Shown: positions 1 to 27,168 of the stretch, one piece after another | Numbering within the stretch: position 1 is the stretch's first letter | Layout: the number at the start of each line of letters is the position of its first letter | IMG/VR virus record: IMGVR_UViG_2558860170_000006 | Source: a virus | Taxonomy: Duplodnaviria; Heunggongvirae; Uroviricota; Caudoviricetes | Direction: 5' to 3' (one strand) | DNA: 37,596 nt | Translations under genes and position numbers: made by a program | Notes under the pieces: generated by a model | Told to the model about the DNA's origin: nothing | Databases searched by the model: none | What the model saw: only the letters and a program-made list of their open reading frames with translations

Positions 1-378
1 ATGGACGAACAGTGGGGCTATGTCGGGGCTAAATCGCGCCAGCGCTGGCTGTTTTACGCGTATGACAGTCTCCGGAAGACGGTTGTTGCGCACGTATTCG
101 GTGAACGCACTATGGCGACGCTGGGGCGTCTTATGAGCCTGCTGTCACCCTTTGACGTGGTGATATGGATGACGGATGGCTGGCCGCTGTATGAATCCCG
201 CCTGAAGGGAAAGCTGCACGTAATCAGCAAGCGATATACGCAGCGAATTGAGCGGCATAACCTGAATCTGAGGCAGCACCTGGCACGGCTGGGACGGAAG
301 TCGCTGTCGTTCTCAAAATCGGTGGAGCTGCATGACAAAGTCATCGGGCATTATCTGAACATAAAACACTATCAATAA
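1..378 (+). CDS. insB: IS1 transposase InsB, C-terminal part (partial at window edge)
   Basis: 125-aa ORF identical to the C-terminus of the InsB ORFs in the other two IS1 copies (…[42 protein letters not shown]…). Confidence 0.85.
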
Positions 379-393
379 GTTGGAGTCATTACC
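1..393 (+). mobile_element. IS1, 3' 393 bp (window starts inside the element)
   Basis: Ends with the IS1 terminal repeat ...CAATAAGTTGGAGTCATTACC at 372-393; sequence matches the two full 768-bp copies at 1929-2696 and 36041-36808. Confidence 0.9.
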
Positions 394-697
394 CGATATC
401 CTGCTGAGAACATAAACACCCACGGATCGAGGCGTACGCTATCATGTTGCTGTGCACCGCCCAGTTTATAATTGGCGATGGTATCGATATCCATGTACCA
501 CACTGACATGTTTTAAAAAATGCAATAAGACATTGTATCTGAAAGAAAAAACAGGATTTTGAGGCGCTTTTTTATACCGTTTTTCCGTGTTTTTAACTGC
601 CTGATTTTATTGAAATCTTTTTTAGTTTTGCAGAAAGGATTTTTTGCTCGATCGCTTTAATTTTATACATTCCTGATAACGGAAATTTTTTTGCCCG

Positions 698-20098: not shown

Positions 20099-20494
20099 TC
20101 ACATCTCGTATGTAATGGAATAAGTCAGATCCGCAGAGCTCCATAACGCCATATCGTCATCACGACGATACTCATAGCCCTGCGTAACCATCGTGGTAAT
20201 CAGTCCTGCCAGTGCAGGGATCGCAGTCATCGCCGGATAAATCCGGCTTTCCATCCACTGATCGAGCTCCGAATCAGGTACCTGTGCCGGTAAAAACACC
20301 TCAATATGCAGTGTGGCCCGCCAGGTATCTGCATCCAGCTCTTCACCGGTATACTCTGCATCCGTCAGATAAACCGCGATCGCAGGAAAATCCTCTTCGT
20401 CAAAAACAACGGGGCGACCATCAAACAGCGTCGCCCCGTGTTCATGCTGCTCGAGTGCATCCAGCACTGCGGCACGAATGTCAGTGTGTTTCAT
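20099..20494 (-). CDS. U: tail terminator protein U
   Basis: 131-aa [47 protein letters not shown]…, lambda U-like. Confidence 0.9.
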
Positions 20495-21066
20495 CGTTTT
20501 ATCGCAATCCTCAGTTGTTGTTTCAGCGCGTATGCCAGTTCTTTAGGCAGGCGTTCACGCCGGATACGGTCAACATTCTCATCAAATGCCTGTTTCAGTG
20601 GGGCCGCCATCGGGATTTTCACCACCTGAATGGGAAGGCGATTACGCTTTTTCCTTCCCTTGTCGTCATTGCCCTCCTCATATCTGGCCTGGGGAAGACG
20701 TTGCATAACATGCCAGCGCCCATTATTTAATCGCTGGATAAATGCCCGCTGATAACGATGCTGACCGGCTTTGAGTATGCTGTTCGGACGACGCCCCAGC
20801 ATTCTGATCCCCAGCTTAATCACAGGGAGATCACCGCGGTTAACGATAATTCTGGCATTCGGATTTCTGACCGTCGCCCGTTTCAGTCTGGACCGTTCCT
20901 TTACCAGTTTCCGTCTCACCCTGGTTTCCCGGGCAACCTGTGACGAAGACTGATTAATCGCCGTTGTGGCCACGCGGTTAATGGTCATTGCAGAAGCAGC
21001 CGGAATGGCGTTTTTACGAACCCGGTTCAGATTGTCAATCGCCTGATCAAGCCCTTTTATCGCCAT
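20491..21066 (-). CDS. Z: minor tail protein Z
   Basis: 191-aa ORF MAIKGLDQAIDNLNRVRKNAIPAASAMTINRVA…, lambda Z-like. Confidence 0.9.
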   Translation of the reverse strand: MAIKGLDQAIDNLNRVRKNAIPAASAMTINRVATTAINQSSSQVARETRVRRKLVKERSRLKRATVRNPNARIIVNRGDLPVIKLGIRMLGRRPNSILKAGQHRYQRAFIQRLNNGRWHVMQRLPQARYEEGNDDKGRKKRNRLPIQVVKIPMAAPLKQAFDENVDRIRRERLPKELAYALKQQLRIAIKR

Positions 21067-21080
21067 AATTCACCCTGCGT

Positions 21081-21155
21081 TTATCGTCGCCGGTTAACTG
21101 CGGGTGGTTGCCCACGGTTGAGCCAGAGATAACAGCTGCCCCCGTCATCCGGAGA
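21081..21155 (-). pseudogene. FII: head-tail joining protein FII, 3' remnant (last ~24 codons)
   Basis: Minus strand encodes SPDDGGSCYLWLNRGQPPAVNRRR*, matching the lambda FII C-terminus; the frame breaks exactly where the IS21-family end begins. Confidence 0.7.
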
Positions 21156-21256
21156 TGTCAGCGCCAGTGATATAAGACGGTAATTCGCCATTTGGATTGT
21201 CCGCTCCACCCAACATGTTGTTTCCTTAAGGTTCTCACACCAGAAAGGACATCAAC

Positions 21257-22429
21257 ATGCTGAGCAGAGAGGACTTTTACATGATAAAGCAAATGCGCCA
21301 GCAGGGCGCGTACATCGTCGATATTGCGACTCAGATTGGTTGCTCTGAACGGACGGTCAGACGCTACCTCAAATACCCTGAACCGCCAGCCAGAAAGACC
21401 CGCCACAAAATGGTTAAGCTGAAACCGTTTATGGATTACATCGACATGCGCCTGGCAGAGAATGTCTGGAATAGCGAGGTTATCTTCGCGGAGATTAAGG
21501 CAATGTGTTATACGGGCGGACGTTCCATGCTGCGTTACTACATCCAGCCCAAACGTAAAATGCGTCCGTCAAAAAGAACAGTTCGCTTCGAAACTCAGCC
21601 TGGATACCAGCTCCAGCATGACTGGGGCGAAGTTGAGGTGGAGGTTGCCGGGCAACGGTGCAAAGTTAACTTTGCGGTTAATACGCTGGGGTTCTCCCGC
21701 AGCTTCCATGTCTTCGCCGCACCAAAACAGGATGCTGAGCATACCTACGAATCACTGGTTCGCGCCTTCCGCTACTTCGGTGGTTGTGTGAAAACGGTGC
21801 TGGTTGATAACCAGAAGGCTGCGGTGCTGAAGAATAACAACGGGAAAGTCGTGTTCAACTCCGGATTCCTGTTGCTGGCTGACCACTATAACTTCCTGCC
21901 ACGGGCATGCCGTCCACGCAGGGCCAGAACAAAAGGTAAGGTTGAGCGGATGGTGAAATACCTCAAGGAGAACTTCTTCGTCCGGTACCGCAGGTTCGAC
22001 AGCTTCACTCATGTCAATCAACAACTGGAGCAATGGATAGCCGATGTGGCTGACAAACGGGAGCTTCGCCAGTTCAAAGAAACGCCGGAACAGCGCTTCG
22101 CGCTGGAGCAGGAACATCTGCAGCCGTTACCGGATACAGACTTCGATACCAGTTACTTCGATATCCGCCATGTGTCCTGGGACAGCTATATCGAGGTTGG
22201 TGGTAATCGTTACAGCGTTCCCGAAGCGCTGTGTGGTCAGCCGGTATCGATACGAATATCGCTGGATGACGAGTTGCGGATCTACAGTAATGAGAAACTG
22301 GTGGCCTCACATCGCCTCTGTTCAGCATCGTCTGGCTGGCAGACAGTGCCGGAGCATCACGCCCCGCTCTGGCAGCAGGTCAGTCAGGTGGAACATCGAC
22401 CACTGAGTGCCTATGAGGAGCTGTTGTGA
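21257..22429 (+). CDS. istA: IS21-family transposase IstA
   Basis: 390-aa ORF with N-terminal HTH and DDE region (…QLQHDWGEVEV…VLVDNQKAAV…TKGKVERMVKYLK…). Confidence 0.9.
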   Translation: MLSREDFYMIKQMRQQGAYIVDIATQIGCSERTVRRYLKYPEPPARKTRHKMVKLKPFMDYIDMRLAENVWNSEVIFAEIKAMCYTGGRSMLRYYIQPKRKMRPSKRTVRFETQPGYQLQHDWGEVEVEVAGQRCKVNFAVNTLGFSRSFHVFAAPKQDAEHTYESLVRAFRYFGGCVKTVLVDNQKAAVLKNNNGKVVFNSGFLLLADHYNFLPRACRPRRARTKGKVERMVKYLKENFFVRYRRFDSFTHVNQQLEQWIADVADKRELRQFKETPEQRFALEQEHLQPLPDTDFDTSYFDIRHVSWDSYIEVGGNRYSVPEALCGQPVSIRISLDDELRIYSNEKLVASHRLCSASSGWQTVPEHHAPLWQQVSQVEHRPLSAYEELL

Positions 22430-22975
22430 TGCATGAACTGGAAGTCCTGCTGAGTCGCCTGAAAATGGAGCATCTGAGTTATCACGTTGAAAGCCTGCTG
22501 GAACAGGCAGCTAAAAAAGAGCTGAACTACCGGGAGTTCCTGTGCATGGCGCTACAGCAGGAATGGAACGGCAGGCATCAGCGCGGTATGGAGTCCAGGC
22601 TGAAGCAGGCTCGTCTGCCGTGGGTCAAAACGCTGGAGCAGTTCGACTTTACCTTCCAGCCGGGCATCGACCGTAAGGTTGTCCGGGAACTGGCTGGTCT
22701 GGCGTTCGTGGAGCGCAGCGAAAACGTGATCCTGCTGGGCCCTCCTGGTGTCGGAAAAACTCATCTGGCCATAGCTCTTGGCGTGAAAGCGGTGGATGCG
22801 GGACATCGGGTACTGTTTATGCCACTGGACAGACTGATCGCGACACTGATGAAAGCGAAACAGGAAAACCGGCTGGAGCGTCAGCTACAGCAACTGAGTT
22901 ATGCCCGGGTGTTGATCCTGGATGAAATAGGCTATCTGCCGATGAACAGAGAGGAAGCCAGTCTGTTCTTCCGGC
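22426..22975 (+). pseudogene. istB: IS21-family helper ATPase IstB, truncated by IS600
   Basis: Walker A GPPGVGKTH and Walker B LILDEIGY present; the frame ends at the IS600 boundary after …EEASLFFR; the expected ~80 C-terminal codons are not found downstream of IS600. Confidence 0.85.
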
Positions 22976-23039
22976 TGAGGTAGCCTGAGTTTAACGGACA
23001 CTCCTTCCTGAAATAGAATGGCATCAGAAGGAGCTAATA

Positions 23040-23342
23040 ATGAGCAGAAAAACCCAACGTTACTCTAAAGAGTTCAAAGCCGAAGCTGTCAGAACGGTTC
23101 TTGAAAATCAACTTTCGATCAGTGAAGGCGCTTCCCGATTATCTCTTCCTGAAGGCACTTTAGGACAATGGGTTACCGCCGCCAGAAAAGGGCTCGGTAC
23201 TCCTGGTTCCCGCACGGTGGCTGAACTGGAATCTGAAATTCTGCAACTGCGTAAGGCGTTAAATGAAGCTCGCCTTGAGCGAGATATATTAAAAAAAGCA
23301 ACAGCGTATTTTGCACAGGAGTCGCTGAAAAATACGCGTTAA
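23040..23342 (+). CDS. IS600 OrfA
   Basis: 100-aa ORF MSRKTQRYSKEFKAEAVRTVLENQLSISEGASRLSLPEGTLGQWV…; A-run (AAAAAAAG) near its 3' end fits an IS3-type -1 frameshift into orfB. Confidence 0.9.
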   Translation: MSRKTQRYSKEFKAEAVRTVLENQLSISEGASRLSLPEGTLGQWVTAARKGLGTPGSRTVAELESEILQLRKALNEARLERDILKKATAYFAQESLKNTR

Positions 23343-23377
23343 TCGAACAATGGCGACAACAATTTCCCATTGAAGCG

Positions 23378-24196
23378 ATGTGTCAGGTATTTGGTGTATC
23401 CAGGAGCGGTTATTACAACTGGGTACAGCATGAACCCTCAGACAGAAAACAAAGTGATGAGCGGCTAAAACTGGAGATTAAGGTGGCACATATCCGCACT
23501 CGCGAAACATATGGAACCCGGCGGCTCCAGACGGAGCTGGCAGAGAATGGCATCATCGTTGGTCGTGACCGACTGGCACGTCTTCGTAAGGAGCTAAGGC
23601 TACGCTGTAAGCAGAAACGCAAGTTCAGAGCGACTACGAACTCGAACCACAATCTGCCAGTTGCGCCAAATCTGCTGAACCAGACGTTCGCTCCTACAGC
23701 ACCAAATCAGGTCTGGGTGGCGGACCTGACGTATGTTGCCACACAGGAGGGATGGTTGTACCTCGCTGGCATCAAAGATGTTTATACGTGCGAAATTGTC
23801 GGCTACGCCATGGGAGAGCGCATGACAAAAGAGCTGACAGGTAAAGCCCTGTTTATGGCGCTCAGGAGCCAGCGCCCACCTGCCGGGCTAATCCACCACT
23901 CTGATCGAGGTTCACAGTACTGCGCATACGATTACCGGGTCATACAGGAGCAGTCTGGTCTGAAAACATCAATGTCGCGTAAAGGTAACTGTTACGACAA
24001 CGCTCCGATGGAAAGCTTCTGGGGAACGCTGAAAAATGAGAGCCTGAGCCACTATCGTTTTAATAACCGGGATGAAGCCATCTCAGTAATACGGGAATAC
24101 ATTGAGATTTTCTACAATCGTCAGCGTCGTCACTCTCGTCTGGGGAATATCTCCCCGGCAGCCTTCAGGGAAAAATATCATCAGATGGCTGCTTAA
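23378..24196 (+). CDS. IS600 OrfB (DDE transposase catalytic part)
   Basis: 272-aa ORF with IS3-family DDE integrase-like sequence (…VWVADLTYV…HHSDRGSQY…YDNAPMESFWGTLK…). Confidence 0.9.
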   Translation: MCQVFGVSRSGYYNWVQHEPSDRKQSDERLKLEIKVAHIRTRETYGTRRLQTELAENGIIVGRDRLARLRKELRLRCKQKRKFRATTNSNHNLPVAPNLLNQTFAPTAPNQVWVADLTYVATQEGWLYLAGIKDVYTCEIVGYAMGERMTKELTGKALFMALRSQRPPAGLIHHSDRGSQYCAYDYRVIQEQSGLKTSMSRKGNCYDNAPMESFWGTLKNESLSHYRFNNRDEAISVIREYIEIFYNRQRRHSRLGNISPAAFREKYHQMAA

Positions 24197-24335
24197 AAAA
24201 AGAACAAATGGTAGTGTCCGCTATTGCCAGTACACCTCAGTTAGTCAGCTTCTTATCGAACTTGAGCTGAAGGATCTTAAAACAAGTTTCCATAGTGCTC
24301 CTGGATTTTCTCTTTTTGGACATTGACGTCTCCAC

Positions 24336-24367
24336 TGGTTTAAACACGGCAATGGAGACTGTGGTGA
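24336..24367. promoter_or_regulatory. near-perfect palindrome, operator-like
   Basis: GTCTCCACTGG-TTTAAACACGG-CAATGGAGAC; 10-bp arms with one mismatch. Confidence 0.25.
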
Positions 24368-24418
24368 AAAGAGTTAATTCCCGGAGTGACTGGCGAATTC
24401 CAATCAATGATCGGAAGT

Positions 24419-24534
24419 ATGCCAAATCGTGATCGATTGTGATGCCAAACTGTGATCGGAGATGGATGCCAAATCATGATCGATTCGAATGCCAAACTGC
24501 GATCGATTCAGATGCCATTTTGCAATCAGCGCCA
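24419..24534 (+). repeat. five tandem ~23-bp direct repeats (iteron-like), four carrying GATC
   Basis: ATGCCAAATCGTGATCGATTGTG / ATGCCAAACTGTGATCGGAGATGG / ATGCCAAATCATGATCGATTCGA / ATGCCAAACTGCGATCGATTCAG / ATGCCATTTTGCAATCAGCGCC; period 23-24 bp, so not coding. Confidence 0.7.
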
Positions 24535-24629
24535 GAACAGCAGCTGACAGGCCGTATTTGATTTTTGCGCTCATGGATATTTATCAGGATGCTACCAATG
24601 AAAGATACTGGAAAGCCAACTGCAAAAAG

Positions 24630-24944
24630 CTAACAACCCGTAATCGAGTTATCAGAACTGTTAATTTTTATGGTATACCGCGCCTCTGAACAGGGGCGCG
24701 TTTCTGGCAACAGCTCGTCCCCTTCACATAACCCGGCAGCAACATCCAAGAAGACCTGTCTGATGCTCCTTCTGGCTGCTGCCTCATAAAACTCCAGCGC
24801 GGCACCTTCAACACGGTCCAGCGAGATGTCCAGGTCAAAAATTTCACCGTCAAAGCGTTTTTTGTCCCGTAACGCTAAAGTTACCGTAACTTTATTCTCA
24901 AAATTGCGGATCCCTTTCACAATCAGTTCATAGTTTTGAGTCAT
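24630..24944 (-). CDS. hypothetical protein in the position normally held by the endolysin
   Basis: 104-aa ORF starting 5 nt after the holin stop; no lysozyme or transglycosylase motif seen. Confidence 0.4.
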   Translation of the reverse strand: MTQNYELIVKGIRNFENKVTVTLALRDKKRFDGEIFDLDISLDRVEGAALEFYEAAARRSIRQVFLDVAAGLCEGDELLPETRPCSEARYTIKINSSDNSITGC

Positions 24945-24948
24945 TGAA

Positions 24949-25164
24949 TTACTCTCCCCGTGCAGCCTTACGACGGTCCTCTCTGATTTTGAAATACAGG
25001 TTAGTCAGATATGTCAGCAGCCCAAACAGCAGACTCCCCAGCACGCCTATTGCCGCCCACTGAGACGGGGAAACCCTGTCCAGCAACTGCAGGAACCAGT
25101 AGCCCGTTCCCACCGCTGACGTGGTGTATGACACACCTGTTGTGATTTTTTCCATCTGGTACAT
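24949..25164 (-). CDS. S: phage holin S (Stx-phage/lambdoid type)
   Basis: [71 protein letters not shown]; hydrophobic helices and charged C-terminus; start taken at ATG 25162-25164 rather than the longer track ORF. Confidence 0.75.
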
Positions 25165-25314
25165 ACCCCGTCTCCCGTTATCCGGAAGCTGACAACAATA
25201 AAAAAAGCCACCAGTTAAGTACTGATGGCTCTGATAACTCATGCAGGCATCTCAGACGACCCACTGACACTACCGGTGAGTTTAACGATACCTTCCATTT
25301 GGCTGGCTCACTTT

Positions 25315-27168
25315 TTATGATGATGCCGGTGCATTTATCTCCAGCACCAGACTTTCTATCTCAACGCCATACGCTGCATTTTTGGTAATATCCGTCAGCG
25401 TCAGCGCATTCAGCCCCAGTGTCAGACTGTCTTTTATGACCTGGAATGCCGGGCCAGCCACTCCATTCAGTTTCGGAGTAACCGTGGCACTGCCGGCGGT
25501 GAACACCAGCTCCAGCGTCAGCCAGTCGTTACTGTAATTCCCGAACTCGCCCAACTTTGTGTTTCCTGCTTTCTTGTGATGCATCAGATTCAGTTTGCCG
25601 TCTGTGGTCTGGGTGAAGAACGACATCAGGAACGGGTTACCAGTCCCGGTCATCGCCACGACGTCAGGTAACGCTACATCGGTATACAGATAAATTCCCA
25701 GACCGAACTGGTTGTTGGTCAGTGCGCCTGACAGTCGAAACTTACAGCTCAGTCTGCCACCCCGTGTCAGCAGGGAGACTGCGTCATCCACCGGGCGCGT
25801 CAGGGACCAGGCTTTATTGCTCTGCTTGGTGATCTTAAATACACCATCTGACAACTGAACTCCGCCATTCTTAATGCTCCAGCCCTGCGCAGCAGCGTCT
25901 CCGGCTGTCGGCAACAGGGAGATTGTGCGTATGGATGCATCTTCAGACGGCCCCGATGGCGTGTCGCCGCCGGGCGAGGGTTTGATTTCCGGTGCCTTAC
26001 CACTAATGAAGGCTAAGGTGCGACCGGCTACGTTCAGAATAGCAGTTGCCATACGATCGGGAATAATGCCACGACGCGCCCATGAGCTGAAATGCGTCGG
26101 GCGATTTGATGATACCCAGTTTTTGTTCGTTCGGGATGCCGAACCGTAATAACCAGACCCGGCAATATCAGGATCTTCTGACGGGTTGTTTGTCGGTGTA
26201 TTAACTCCGCTACCATCGGTCATAAAGGGAACAAAATAAATCTGCTGGGATTCTTTACCTTTATATGCACCATATACCACTTCATATTGCGTACCGTGTT
26301 CTTGTTTCCACGCGTATGTCGTGTCGCCACAAATCCAGGGGACTGATGCCGGACTTCCACCGTGACACTGCGCCGCCAGCCCGGCAAGGTCAGCACGGAA
26401 CTGCTGTACCATTGCAAGAAATGCTGCTGGCTGCTGGGCGTAACTGGCATTCGTCATATCGAATTCCCCCTGCATCCAGCATATCGCCAGCAAAACGTTT
26501 TTCGGGTTTTTCTGCAATGCTGCCTTCGTGCGGAAAAGCAGATCCTGATATAACGGCTTACCCACTCCCCAGCGAGCCGAATCCTGACTGGCCCCCGTGG
26601 ACTCGCTGAATGTCCCCTCCGTGCCCTGGGTGAATGCCGAACCACCACAACAGCATGGTACCAGCAGGATCCCCGCATTATTAGGGATATACGGAAGCAG
26701 TTTTTTGGCAATATGTAAGCCCTGTCCGACACAGCCGTACTGCCCTTTGCTCAGGTCAGCCCGGGGATGGTTAATCGTACTCATATCCTGAACATCATGC
26801 AGACAATGGTCAGCAGGAATGATGTCGTTAAATACGCATACTTCACCACCGGGAGTCACTGTGTTACGACGGGCCAGTTGCTTAATGCGCGGATGGGGCG
26901 CATCGTATGAATCCGGAAGCGGAAGACCTTCACCGTAAGCCATGGCATTGGATTGCCCGGCCAGTACGATGACGTAGTACCACTCCGGCTCAGTTGCACC
27001 ACTGACGACCACATCACCTTCTGCTGCAATCGCCTGCATCAGGGTATAAGGGGTTATGGCCACCGGACTACCAAACGGCTGCCAGCCCTCCTTCAGTTTT
27101 TGTGTCAGTCGTTTCGCAAGGTCTGACGGCGATGCCGCCCTGACCACGTCATAGTGTTTAAATGCCAT
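25315..27168 (-). CDS. nanS-p: NanS-p-type esterase (9-O-acetyl-neuraminate esterase-like, YjhS family)
   Basis: 617-aa ORF; occupies the position directly upstream of S, as I recall for this family in lambdoid/Stx prophages. Confidence 0.8.
   Translation of the reverse strand: MAFKHYDVVRAASPSDLAKRLTQKLKEGWQPFGSPVAITPYTLMQAIAAEGDVVVSGATEPEWYYVIVLAGQSNAMAYGEGLPLPDSYDAPHPRIKQLARRNTVTPGGEVCVFNDIIPADHCLHDVQDMSTINHPRADLSKGQYGCVGQGLHIAKKLLPYIPNNAGILLVPCCCGGSAFTQGTEGTFSESTGASQDSARWGVGKPLYQDLLFRTKAALQKNPKNVLLAICWMQGEFDMTNASYAQQPAAFLAMVQQFRADLAGLAAQCHGGSPASVPWICGDTTYAWKQEHGTQYEVVYGAYKGKESQQIYFVPFMTDGSGVNTPTNNPSEDPDIAGSGYYGSASRTNKNWVSSNRPTHFSSWARRGIIPDRMATAILNVAGRTLAFISGKAPEIKPSPGGDTPSGPSEDASIRTISLLPTAGDAAAQGWSIKNGGVQLSDGVFKITKQSNKAWSLTRPVDDAVSLLTRGGRLSCKFRLSGALTNNQFGLGIYLYTDVALPDVVAMTGTGNPFLMSFFTQTTDGKLNLMHHKKAGNTKLGEFGNYSNDWLTLELVFTAGSATVTPKLNGVAGPAFQVIKDSLTLGLNALTLTDITKNAAYGVEIESLVLEINAPASS

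What the first reader, a model, noticed from the sequence alone, without database searches (positions are those of the whole stretch)
24336..24534. Iteron-like array of five 23-bp direct repeats with regularly spaced GATC sites, next to a palindrome
Five tandem repeats with consensus ATGCCAAAYYGTGATCGATTC and a 23-24-bp period are plainly non-coding and place four GATC motifs about 23 bp apart. A 10-bp-arm palindrome (GTCTCCACTGG…CAATGGAGAC) lies 50 bp upstream. This resembles plasmid or phage iterons, a Dam/SeqA-sensitive control region, terminase-binding repeats at a cos/pac site, or subterminal binding sites of a transposon end. The last residue of the array reads …CAGCTGACA, reminiscent of the TGTCAGC start of the IS21-family left end.
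Basis: seen in the sequence. Interest (0 to 1): 0.55.

Follow-up and report, generated by a model that had tools for sequence, protein, structure and literature searches.

The report
Left end of insertion sequence ISSso4
The repeat array is the transposase-binding left end of a known IS21-family insertion sequence (ISSso4) that landed in a prophage lysis gene and was later cut down by another insertion sequence, so it is an ordinary mobile-element remnant.

Summary
The repeats are real. Units of 22-24 bp, each with a TTTGGCAT box and a (C)GATC box, lie at 24395-24524, and a 10-bp-arm palindrome lies at 24328-24359. They are not iterons, a cos/pac site or a phage control region. Window 24240-24524, read on the minus strand, is 100% identical to the first 285 bp of ISSso4. 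ISSso4 is a 2638-bp IS21-family element (istA + istB, 5'-TG...CA-3' termini, 5-bp target duplication) found in hundreds of E. coli and Shigella chromosomes and plasmids. The array is the multi-repeat left terminal inverted repeat (L1-L5 plus a degenerate L6). The right end of intact copies carries three inverted copies of the same unit. In the IS21 family such units, spaced 23 bp apart, are the sites bound by the two HTH domains of the IstA transposase. Here ISSso4 inserted after about codon 17 of a lambdoid-prophage endolysin gene. IS600 (22976-24239) then removed everything beyond istA codon 18, so only a solo, inactive end remains. The palindrome sits in the istA leader, and its 3' arm holds a GGAG just before an upstream in-frame ATG. 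Already known; low interest.

The parts
24240..24524 (-). Remnant of IS21-family element ISSso4: its first 285 bp, made of the left terminal repeat region, the istA leader and the first 18 annotated istA codons
   Evidence: 100% identity over 285 bp to full-length ISSso4 copies. blastn of the 2638-bp element against the window finds only positions 1-285.
24501..24524 (-). Unit L1 with the IS terminus (IS strand: TGCAAAATGGCATCTGAATCGATC); the 5'-TG terminus is at 24524
   Evidence: Boundary fixed by comparing three independent insertions and the intact phage gene. Register taken.
24478..24500 (-). Unit L2 (GCAGTTTGGCATTCGAATCGATC)
24454..24477 (-). Unit L3 (ATGATTTGGCATCCATCTCCGATC)
24431..24453 (-). 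Unit L4 (ACAGTTTGGCATCACAATCGATC)
24409..24430 (-). Unit L5 (ACGATTTGGCATACTTCCGATC)
24395..24408 (-). Degenerate half-unit L6 (ATTGATTGGAATTC). Relatives have an intact GATTGGCAT here.
24328..24359 (-). Palindrome or hairpin in the istA leader. Its 3' arm on the IS strand (CCAGTGGAGAC) contains GGAG 6 nt before the upstream in-frame ATG at 24323.
   Evidence: arms; fold, z = -2.97; conserved in relatives; changes keep pairing through G-U; in-frame upstream start.
24240..24323 (-). 5' end of istA: possible long-form start ATG at 24323-24321 (MSKKRKSRST-), RefSeq-annotated start ATG at 24293-24291 (METCFKILQLKFDKKLTN) preceded by AGGAG at 24302-24298. The gene is cut after annotated codon 18 by IS600.
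24525..24574 (-). Stump of the prophage endolysin (lysozyme) gene, about 17 codons (MSAKIKYGLSAAVLALI), disrupted by the ISSso4 insertion
   Evidence: Identical to the start of the mEp460 lysozyme gene up to the junction. Intact 177-aa lysozyme genes follow the identical DUF1327 gene in 8 other loci.
22976..24239 (+). IS3-family element of 1264 bp (taken to be IS600) that truncates ISSso4 on one side and IS21 istB on the other. It has no 3-bp target duplication (GGC versus GTT).
   Evidence: Self-blast finds three copies in the window. Flanks. ORFs of 100 and 272 aa. The name IS600 comes from my recollection of the protein sequences and the Shigella context; it was not looked up.
21156..22975 (+). 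A separate IS21-type element (left end TGTCAGCGCC..., istA of 390 aa, istB truncated at 185 aa by IS600).

Best explanation
The array is the left terminal inverted-repeat region of the IS21-family insertion sequence ISSso4, read on the minus strand. It holds five 22-24-bp direct units plus a degenerate sixth. Each unit carries two conserved boxes, TTTGGCAT and (C)GATC, about one helical turn apart.

By analogy with IS21 and IS5376, each unit is a docking site for one IstA transposase subunit through its tandem HTH-1 and HTH-2 domains. The terminal unit L1 positions the catalytic subunit at the 5'-TG/CA-3' end. The inner units bind structural subunits. The roughly 23-bp phasing lets the two ends wrap as negatively supercoiled crossings in an IstA tetramer, which the AAA+ helper IstB then activates.

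In this window the element inserted into a lambdoid-prophage endolysin gene. It then lost everything beyond istA codon 18 to an IS600-associated deletion or recombination. What remains is a solo left end with no transposase gene and no partner end, which makes it an inert relic.

The palindrome lies in the istA 5' leader. It most likely acts as an RNA hairpin that masks the Shine-Dalgarno sequence of the upstream in-frame istA start. This last step is inference.
For: Shown here:

- 100% identity of 24240-24524 to the first 285 bp of full ISSso4 copies, which lie next to genes RefSeq annotates as 'IS21-like element ISSso4 family transposase' and IstB.
- The 231-bp non-coding end has 2332 matching places in 1661 E. 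coli genomes. 331 records cover at least 80% of it.
- It is 100% identical in Shigella sonnei plasmids, including those of Ss046 and 53G.
- The full element is 2638 bp with a 5-bp target duplication (TTCCT) and termini TGCA.../...CGCA.
- IstA matches NF033546 (IS21 family transposase, 287 bits against a cutoff of 160) and Mu-transpos_C_2. Its rve score, 32.2 bits, is just under the 32.6 cutoff. IstB matches NF038214 (252 bits against 200).
- The same unit occurs three times in inverted orientation at the right end, with GATC at 20, 44 and 66 from the end. On the left, GATC lies at 21, 44, 68, 91 and 113.
- The junction with the phage gene is base-exact. The window follows the mEp460 lysozyme gene up to ...GCGCTGAT and then switches to the ISSso4 terminus.
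- Relatives whose IstA is only 44-50% identical (ISPre4, ISEc12, ISAs29, ISBmu3 and a Serratia element) all carry about 3-4 tandem 21-23-bp units upstream of istA, and inverted copies of the unit are visible after istB in the four whose downstream sequence was read.

From the literature:

- IS21 TIRs are composed of multiple direct repeats (L1/L2, R1/R2).
- Each repeat has two conserved boxes (CS1 and CS2) about 10 bp apart, contacted by HTH-2 and HTH-1.
- Repeats are spaced 23 bp apart, two complete repeats are needed for integration, and target duplications are 5 bp (PMC10122671).
- The multiple terminal repeats help keep the transposase autoinhibited until IstB binds (PMC11208146).
Against: No direct binding or transposition data exist for ISSso4 itself, so the assignment of units to IstA subunits is by homology. 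IS5376 needs only two repeats per end, and the role of the extra left-end units L3-L6 is unknown. A Buttiauxella variant lacks two of them. No sigma-70-like promoter was detected in the end by the simple scan, so how istA is transcribed is not shown. For the palindrome, sense and antisense strands fold about equally well and only three distinct sequence types were available. An RNA role is therefore not distinguished from a DNA (operator) role.
Confidence: 0.96

Rival explanations
1. Dam/SeqA-sensitive control region. The regularly spaced GATC sites would make IstA binding, or istA expression, depend on the methylation state. That would couple ISSso4 transposition to passage of the replication fork, as in IS10 and IS50. 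This would be an added layer on the IS end, not an alternative identity.
For: There are five GATC sites in 96 bp, the densest cluster in the window. Eight of the 13 GATC sites in the 2638-bp element lie in its two ends. All five left-end GATCs are kept in the 83%-identical Serratia variant, while neighbouring bases vary. The known hosts are Dam+ enterobacteria (my own knowledge).
Against: GATC is simply one of the two conserved boxes of the repeated unit, so its enrichment follows from the repetition. The box is kept (TGATCA) in ISBmu3 of Burkholderia, a genus without the Dam/SeqA system (my own knowledge). It is replaced by other sequences in ISPre4 and ISAs29, and ISAs29 comes from Dam+ Aeromonas. 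No methylation data are available.
Confidence: 0.1
2. Iterons of a plasmid or phage replication origin, bound by a Rep initiator.
For: Only the form fits: tandem direct repeats of about 22 bp with GATC sites.
Against: There is no rep gene, DnaA-box or AT-rich unwinding context. The flanks are an IS3-family element and a truncated lysis gene. The array always sits at the end of an istA-istB unit in unrelated chromosomal, ICE and plasmid sites, bounded by target duplications. An inverted set of the same units closes the other end of the element.
Confidence: 0.01
3. Terminase-binding repeats (cos/pac) or another native regulatory site of the prophage lysis/packaging region.
For: Its position downstream of the lysis genes is where lambdoid phages place cos and Nu1 (context).
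Against: The eight other loci read that encode the identical DUF1327 protein all have an intact endolysin gene after it, followed in most by an Rz-type lysis gene, and none has an IS after the DUF1327 gene. mEp460, aligned base by base, lacks the array. The phage collection has only three partial 86% matches, annotated as partial transposase. The array interrupts the endolysin reading frame at about codon 17.
Confidence: 0.01

Closest known systems
ISSso4 (IS21 family; named from Shigella sonnei, so annotated by RefSeq/PGAP)
   Same: Identical sequence: 285 of 285 bp, covering the left terminus, all repeat units, the leader palindrome and the first istA codons. The same 231-bp end is found in S. 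sonnei plasmids including those of Ss046 and 53G.
   Different: Only the first 285 of 2638 bp are present. The rest of istA, all of istB and the right end are missing from the window.
IS21 / IS5376 terminal inverted repeats (L1-L2(-L3), R1-R2), the structurally characterised IstA binding sites
   Same: Both have multiple direct repeats at each end, about 23-bp phasing, two conserved boxes per unit roughly one helical turn apart, a terminal CA, 5-bp target duplications, and an istA-istB operon starting just inside the left end (PMC10122671).
   Different: The box sequences differ (TTTGGCAT and CGATC). ISSso4 has more units on the left (5-6) than the two used in the structures, and three on the right. 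ISSso4 IstA is 511-521 aa against 390 aa for the IS21-type IstA in this window.
Transposase-binding repeats in Mu ends (L1-L3, R1-R3) and Tn7 ends (TnsB sites)
   Same: The logic is the same: several subterminal copies of the transposase recognition sequence, with asymmetric numbers at the two ends, assemble a multimeric DDE transpososome controlled by an AAA+ partner (PMC10122671 discussion).
   Different: These are different protein families and motifs. ISSso4 is a 2.6-kb IS with no cargo.
Plasmid iterons (e.g. 19-22-bp Rep-binding repeats)
   Same: A tandem array of about 22-bp direct repeats, sometimes containing GATC.
   Different: There is no initiator gene or origin, and the array is bounded by a transposon terminus and mirrored at the other IS end.

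Membership tests
IS21 family / ISSso4 | Nucleotide identity to the reference element | tested here: met
   285/285 bp identical to copies annotated 'IS21-like element ISSso4 family'. ISfinder itself could not be queried.
IS21 family / ISSso4 | Two consecutive genes: istA (HTH + DDE transposase) and istB (AAA+ helper) | tested here: met
   Met in the full-length copies L001-L003: NF033546 at 287 bits (cutoff 160), NF038214 at 252 bits (cutoff 200), and Mu-transpos_C_2. The rve score, 32.2 bits, is marginally below its 32.6 cutoff. In the window only 18 (or 28) istA codons survive, so this copy is a remnant.
IS21 family / ISSso4 | Termini 5'-TG ... CA-3' with imperfect terminal inverted repeats | tested here: met
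   The left end is TGCAAAATGGCATCT... The reverse complement of the right end is TGCGTATTCCGCTCT....
IS21 family / ISSso4 | Multiple direct repeats inside each TIR, spaced about 23 bp, each with two conserved boxes | tested here: met
   Left GATC at 21/44/68/91/113 and GGCAT at 9/32/55/79/102; right GATC at 20/44/66. The family trait is described in PMC10122671. It recurs in five relatives with 44-50% identical IstA.
IS21 family / ISSso4 | Short target-site duplication (commonly 5 bp) | tested here: met
   TTCCT flanks the copy in L002, and (G)CAGAT flanks the copy in L003. It cannot be tested for the window copy because the right end is absent.
IS21 family / ISSso4 | IstA binds the repeat units | not testable with these tools
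   Inferred from the IS5376 cryo-EM and biochemistry (PMC10122671, PMC11208146).
Plasmid/phage iteron origin | Adjacent initiator (rep) gene and origin elements; the array is independent of a mobile-element boundary | tested here: not met
   The neighbours are an IS3-family element and a truncated endolysin gene. The array is always the end of an istAB unit.
Phage cos/pac terminase-binding site | Present in related phages next to terminase genes | tested here: not met
   Phage mEp460, aligned directly, lacks the array, and the 8 other loci with the identical DUF1327 gene have an intact lysozyme gene and no IS after it. Only 3 partial matches exist in 50,697 phage records, annotated as partial transposase.
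Dam-regulated transposon end (IS10/IS50 type) | GATC in the transposase-binding site or promoter, with methylation-dependent activity | tested here: inconclusive
   GATC is present in every unit. The box is also kept in a Burkholderia relative and lost in an Aeromonas relative. Methylation dependence cannot be tested here.

The most novel reading that the evidence does not exclude
ISSso4 and its close relatives may use two so far undescribed regulatory layers in the left end. First, a GATC inside every IstA-binding unit could make end recognition depend on Dam hemimethylation. Second, a conserved leader hairpin could mask the Shine-Dalgarno sequence of the upstream in-frame istA start. That would set the ratio of a long (transposase-like) to a short (cointegrase-like) IstA isoform, as the two starts do in IS21.
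Probability: 0.12. Interest if true: 0.3.

Novelty: already known. Interest (0 to 1): 0.06.

Why it matters
It matters little beyond correct annotation. The result shows that this stretch is not a phage or plasmid control element. It is the orphaned end of ISSso4, and it marks where a prophage lysis gene was inactivated in an IS-rich, Shigella-like genome. It also explains the chimeric 56-aa ORF. It documents an IS scar (IS21' - IS600 - 'ISSso4) at a site where the prophage lacks everything between endolysin codon 17 and tail gene Z. The side observations on ISSso4 could be useful to people working on IS21-family regulation. These are 5-6 left units against 3 right units, a GATC in every unit, and a leader hairpin over the Shine-Dalgarno sequence of an upstream in-frame start.

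Tried and rejected
- **Tn7/Mu-like transposon end.** This was my first guess from the truncated endolysin gene. It was rejected once megablast gave the exact ISSso4 match.
- **Finding the source genome.** An exact search for the endolysin/ISSso4 junction (40-mer) in genome contigs found nothing. That collection has one genome per species, so this says nothing about rarity.
- **Rest of the interrupted elements.** blastn of the full element and of the mEp460 lysis region finds neither the rest of ISSso4 nor the rest of the endolysin gene in the window.
- **Known RNA families.** An Rfam scan of 24150-24700 gave only a chance-level snoRNA hit (18 bits against a gathering score of 55, E = 0.28).
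- **Promoters and terminators.** The scan found no sigma-70-like promoter in 24200-24700. It found one terminator-like hairpin, at 24655-24630, between the DUF1327 and endolysin genes, outside the element.
- **RNA versus DNA role of the palindrome.** Comparing sense and antisense folding did not separate the two. Energies are similar on both strands and only three sequence types were available.
- **NCBIfam on the neighbours.** It gave no family for the 104-aa and 97-aa proteins. Pfam did: DUF1327 and the P21 holin S family.

Full report
**1. The observation**

The sequence at 24395-24524 contains a tandem array. TRF finds a 23-bp period with 4.3 copies at 24419-24517. The degenerate pattern ATGCCAAAYYRTGATCG, with up to 3 mismatches, hits five times, all on the + strand and all in 24397-24505. 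The chance expectation for the whole window is 0.71, and 0 of 100 shuffles reached five hits. GATC starts at 24409, 24431, 24454, 24478 and 24501. That makes five sites rather than four, and it is the densest GATC cluster in the window. The palindrome is also there: 24328-24337 pairs with 24350-24359, with 9 of 10 positions complementary and a 12-nt spacer.

**2. What it is**

A megablast of 24200-24640 against complete E. coli genomes shows that window 24240-24524/5 is 100% identical to a segment lying next to genes annotated 'IS21-like element ISSso4 family transposase'.

- In three independent loci, the array is the outer end of an istA-istB unit. The loci are L001 beside an autotransporter pseudogene, L002 inside an integrating conjugative element, and L003 in an RHS region.
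- Comparing flanks fixes the termini. The left end is 5'-TGCAAAATGGCATC and the right end is ...GAGCGGAATACGCA-3'.
- The element is 2638 bp and is flanked by a 5-bp duplication, TTCCT in L002 and (G)CAGAT in L003.
- IstA matches NF033546 (IS21 family transposase, 287 bits, cutoff 160) and Mu-transpos_C_2. Its rve score is 32.2 bits, just under the 32.6 cutoff. IstB matches NF038214 (IS21 helper ATPase, 252 bits, cutoff 200).
- A blastn of the whole element against the window finds only its first 285 bp, on the minus strand.

**3. Context in the window**

Read on the minus strand, the window runs in this order:

- a SASA-type esterase (25315-27168);
- a P21-type holin (24949-25242);
- a DUF1327/YdfR protein (24630-24944);
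- the first ~17 codons of a lysozyme gene (24574-24525, MSAKIKYGLSAAVLALI).

The lysozyme stump is identical to phage mEp460 up to ...GCGCTGAT. There the sequence switches base-exactly to the ISSso4 terminus. Eight other public loci that encode the identical DUF1327 protein all have an intact 177-aa lysozyme gene after it, with no IS there. So ISSso4 inserted into the endolysin gene.

Inside the element, the RefSeq-annotated istA start is ATG 24293, preceded by AGGAG. After codon 18 the sequence runs into the end of a 1264-bp IS3-family element at 22976-24239. I take this element to be IS600. It occurs three times in the window. On its other side this IS abuts a truncated istB of a different, IS21-type element (21156-22975). 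It has no 3-bp target duplication (GGC versus GTT), so the junctions are deletion or recombination scars. Beyond the IS21-type element lies tail gene Z (20491-21066). The prophage therefore lacks the rest of the lysis cassette and the packaging and head genes.

The IS content matches what is reported for Shigella sonnei 53G (PMC7373316): IS1, IS600, IS21 and ISSso4. The 231-bp end is 100% identical in S. sonnei plasmids including those of Ss046 and 53G. The origin of the window is inferred from this and is not proven.

**4. Anatomy of the end**

Counting from the terminus on the IS strand, the units are:

| Unit | Sequence | Length |
|---|---|---|
| L1 | TGCAAAATGGCATCTGAATCGATC | 24 bp |
| L2 | GCAGTTTGGCATTCGAATCGATC | 23 bp |
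| L3 | ATGATTTGGCATCCATCTCCGATC | 24 bp |
| L4 | ACAGTTTGGCATCACAATCGATC | 23 bp |
| L5 | ACGATTTGGCATACTTCCGATC | 22 bp |
| L6 (degenerate) | ATTGATTGGAAT... | partial |

- GGCAT lies at positions 9, 32, 55, 79 and 102, and GATC at 21, 44, 68, 91 and 113.
- The right end of intact copies, read inward, has three units with GATC at 20, 44 and 66: TGCGTATTCCGCTCTATTCGATC, ACGGATTGGCATCGAAGTTCGATC and AGCGATTCGCATCCATTCGATC.
- Variants at 83-97% identity keep all GATC boxes while the four bases next to them vary, and they have an intact sixth GGCAT.
- A Buttiauxella variant lacks exactly two units (47 bp). L001 has a deletion between right-end units. This is the kind of slippage expected in a repeat array.

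**5. How it works**

Structural and biochemical work on IS5376 (PMC10122671) states the following.

- IS21-family TIRs are composed of multiple direct repeats (L1/L2, R1/R2).
- Each repeat has two conserved boxes, CS1 and CS2, about 10 bp apart. They are read by HTH-2 and HTH-1 of IstA.
- Repeats are separated by 23 bp, which favours a supercoiled synapse.
- Two complete repeats are needed for integration.
- Insertions make 5-bp duplications.

PMC11208146 adds that the multiple terminal repeats help hold the transposase in an autoinhibited state until IstB binds. The ISSso4 array fits this description feature by feature. The assignment of TTTGGCAT and CGATC to CS-type boxes is my inference.

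The trait holds across the clade. Five relatives with IstA only 44-50% identical were examined: ISPre4, ISEc12, ISAs29, ISBmu3 and a Serratia element. Each has about 3-4 tandem units of 21-23 bp upstream of istA. Inverted copies of the unit are visible after istB in the four whose downstream sequence was read. In this window the end is orphaned, with no istA/istB and no right end. At most it could bind IstA supplied in trans.

**6. The GATC question**

GATC is one of the two boxes of the unit, so its regular spacing follows from the repetition. The box is kept (TGATCA) in ISBmu3 from Burkholderia, which to my knowledge lacks Dam. It is replaced by other sequences in ISPre4 and in ISAs29 from Aeromonas. 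This argues that GATC is primarily a protein-recognition element. A secondary Dam effect in enterobacteria, as in IS10 and IS50, is not excluded and was not testable.

**7. The palindrome**

The palindrome lies between the array and istA.

- On the IS strand its 3' arm (CCAGTGGAGAC) carries GGAG 6 nt before an in-frame ATG at 24323. This ATG lies ten codons upstream of the annotated start (MSKKRKSRST-METCF...).
- IS21 itself (MLSREDFY-M...) and four of the five relatives have a second in-frame Met 7-8 codons after the annotated start; ISPre4 instead has an in-frame GTG five codons upstream of its annotated ATG. [quoted passage not shown]
- The 116-nt leader folds better than shuffles (-32.5 kcal/mol, z = -2.97). 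The predicted stem also pairs CUCC with the GGAG of the annotated start.
- The three base changes seen in relatives keep pairing through G-U.
- ISPre4 has a comparable hairpin, CGACCTCT...AGAGGTCG, directly before an in-frame GTG.
- Sense and antisense strands fold equally well, and the available diversity is low.

Translational control of the long isoform is therefore a reasonable hypothesis but not a result.

**8. Rivals**

- **Iterons.** There is no rep or origin context, and the array moves with the IS.
- **cos/pac.** Phage mEp460, aligned directly, lacks the array, and the eight other loci with the identical DUF1327 gene have an intact lysozyme gene after it. The phage collection holds only three partial 86% matches, annotated as partial transposase.
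- **A known RNA family.** Rfam gives nothing meaningful.

**9. Verdict**

Those bases (24541-24549) are endolysin codons shared with mEp460. The genuine TGTCAGC terminus belongs to the other IS21-type element at 21156. The array is a known feature of a known insertion sequence, and this copy is a truncated remnant. Interest is low.

Noticed in passing
window 24291-24323 (-); L008-L012 istA starts: ISSso4 istA has an in-frame ATG ten codons upstream of the RefSeq-annotated start (MSKKRKSRST-METCF...). IS21 and four of the five relatives show a second in-frame Met 7-8 codons after the annotated start; ISPre4 has an in-frame GTG upstream instead. This resembles the IS21 transposase/cointegrase pair, so the annotated ISSso4 start may be that of the shorter isoform.
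   Followed up: partly
window 22976-24239 with flanks 22973-22975 and 24240-24242: The IS3-family element (IS600-like) has no target duplication (GGC versus GTT). It joins a truncated IS21 istB to a truncated ISSso4 istA, which makes it an IS-mediated deletion or recombination scar. Two more copies lie at 34315-35578 (-) and from 37230 to the window end (+), and could support inversions.
   Followed up: partly
window 20491-24574: The prophage goes straight from endolysin codon 17 to tail gene Z (PF06763). Rz/Rz1, terminase, portal and head genes are absent, so the prophage is defective.
   Followed up: partly
L008 about 1337-1409; L010 and L011 upstream of istA: In the Serratia 50% relative, ISEc12 and ISAs29, extra copies of the repeat unit in the opposite orientation lie between the direct array and istA. 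They could be operator-like sites for autoregulation. None is seen in ISSso4.
   Followed up: no
L006 3002-3240; L001 1194-1230: The number of repeat units varies between copies. A Buttiauxella variant lacks exactly two left units (47 bp), and the E. coli CE0026f copy has a deletion between right-end units.
   Followed up: partly
E. coli O157:H7, O145:H28 and other genomes, hits H58-H63; Stx2a phages H109-H111: Many EHEC genomes and three Stx2a phage records hold only about 95-100 bp of the array, matching units L2-L5. Identity is about 92% in the genomes and 86% in the phage records. The genome hits have no annotated feature and the phage hits are annotated 'transposase, partial'. These look like orphan IS21-family end remnants.
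   Followed up: no
window 24404-24574 (-): The 56-aa ORF is a chimera: the signal-anchor-like N-terminus of the endolysin (MSAKIKYGLSAAVLALI) fused to read-through of the IS repeats. It should not be annotated as a gene.
   Followed up: yes
window 28434-29492 (-): This 352-aa ORF is 79% identical at the DNA level to the mEp460 gene annotated as DNA methyltransferase. Its specificity was not examined.
   Followed up: no
window 1-395, 1929-2696, 36041-36808: Three copies (one partial) of a 768-bp repeat, whose size fits IS1. Together with IS600, IS21 and ISSso4 this gives very high IS density, typical of Shigella. The name was not looked up.
   Followed up: no
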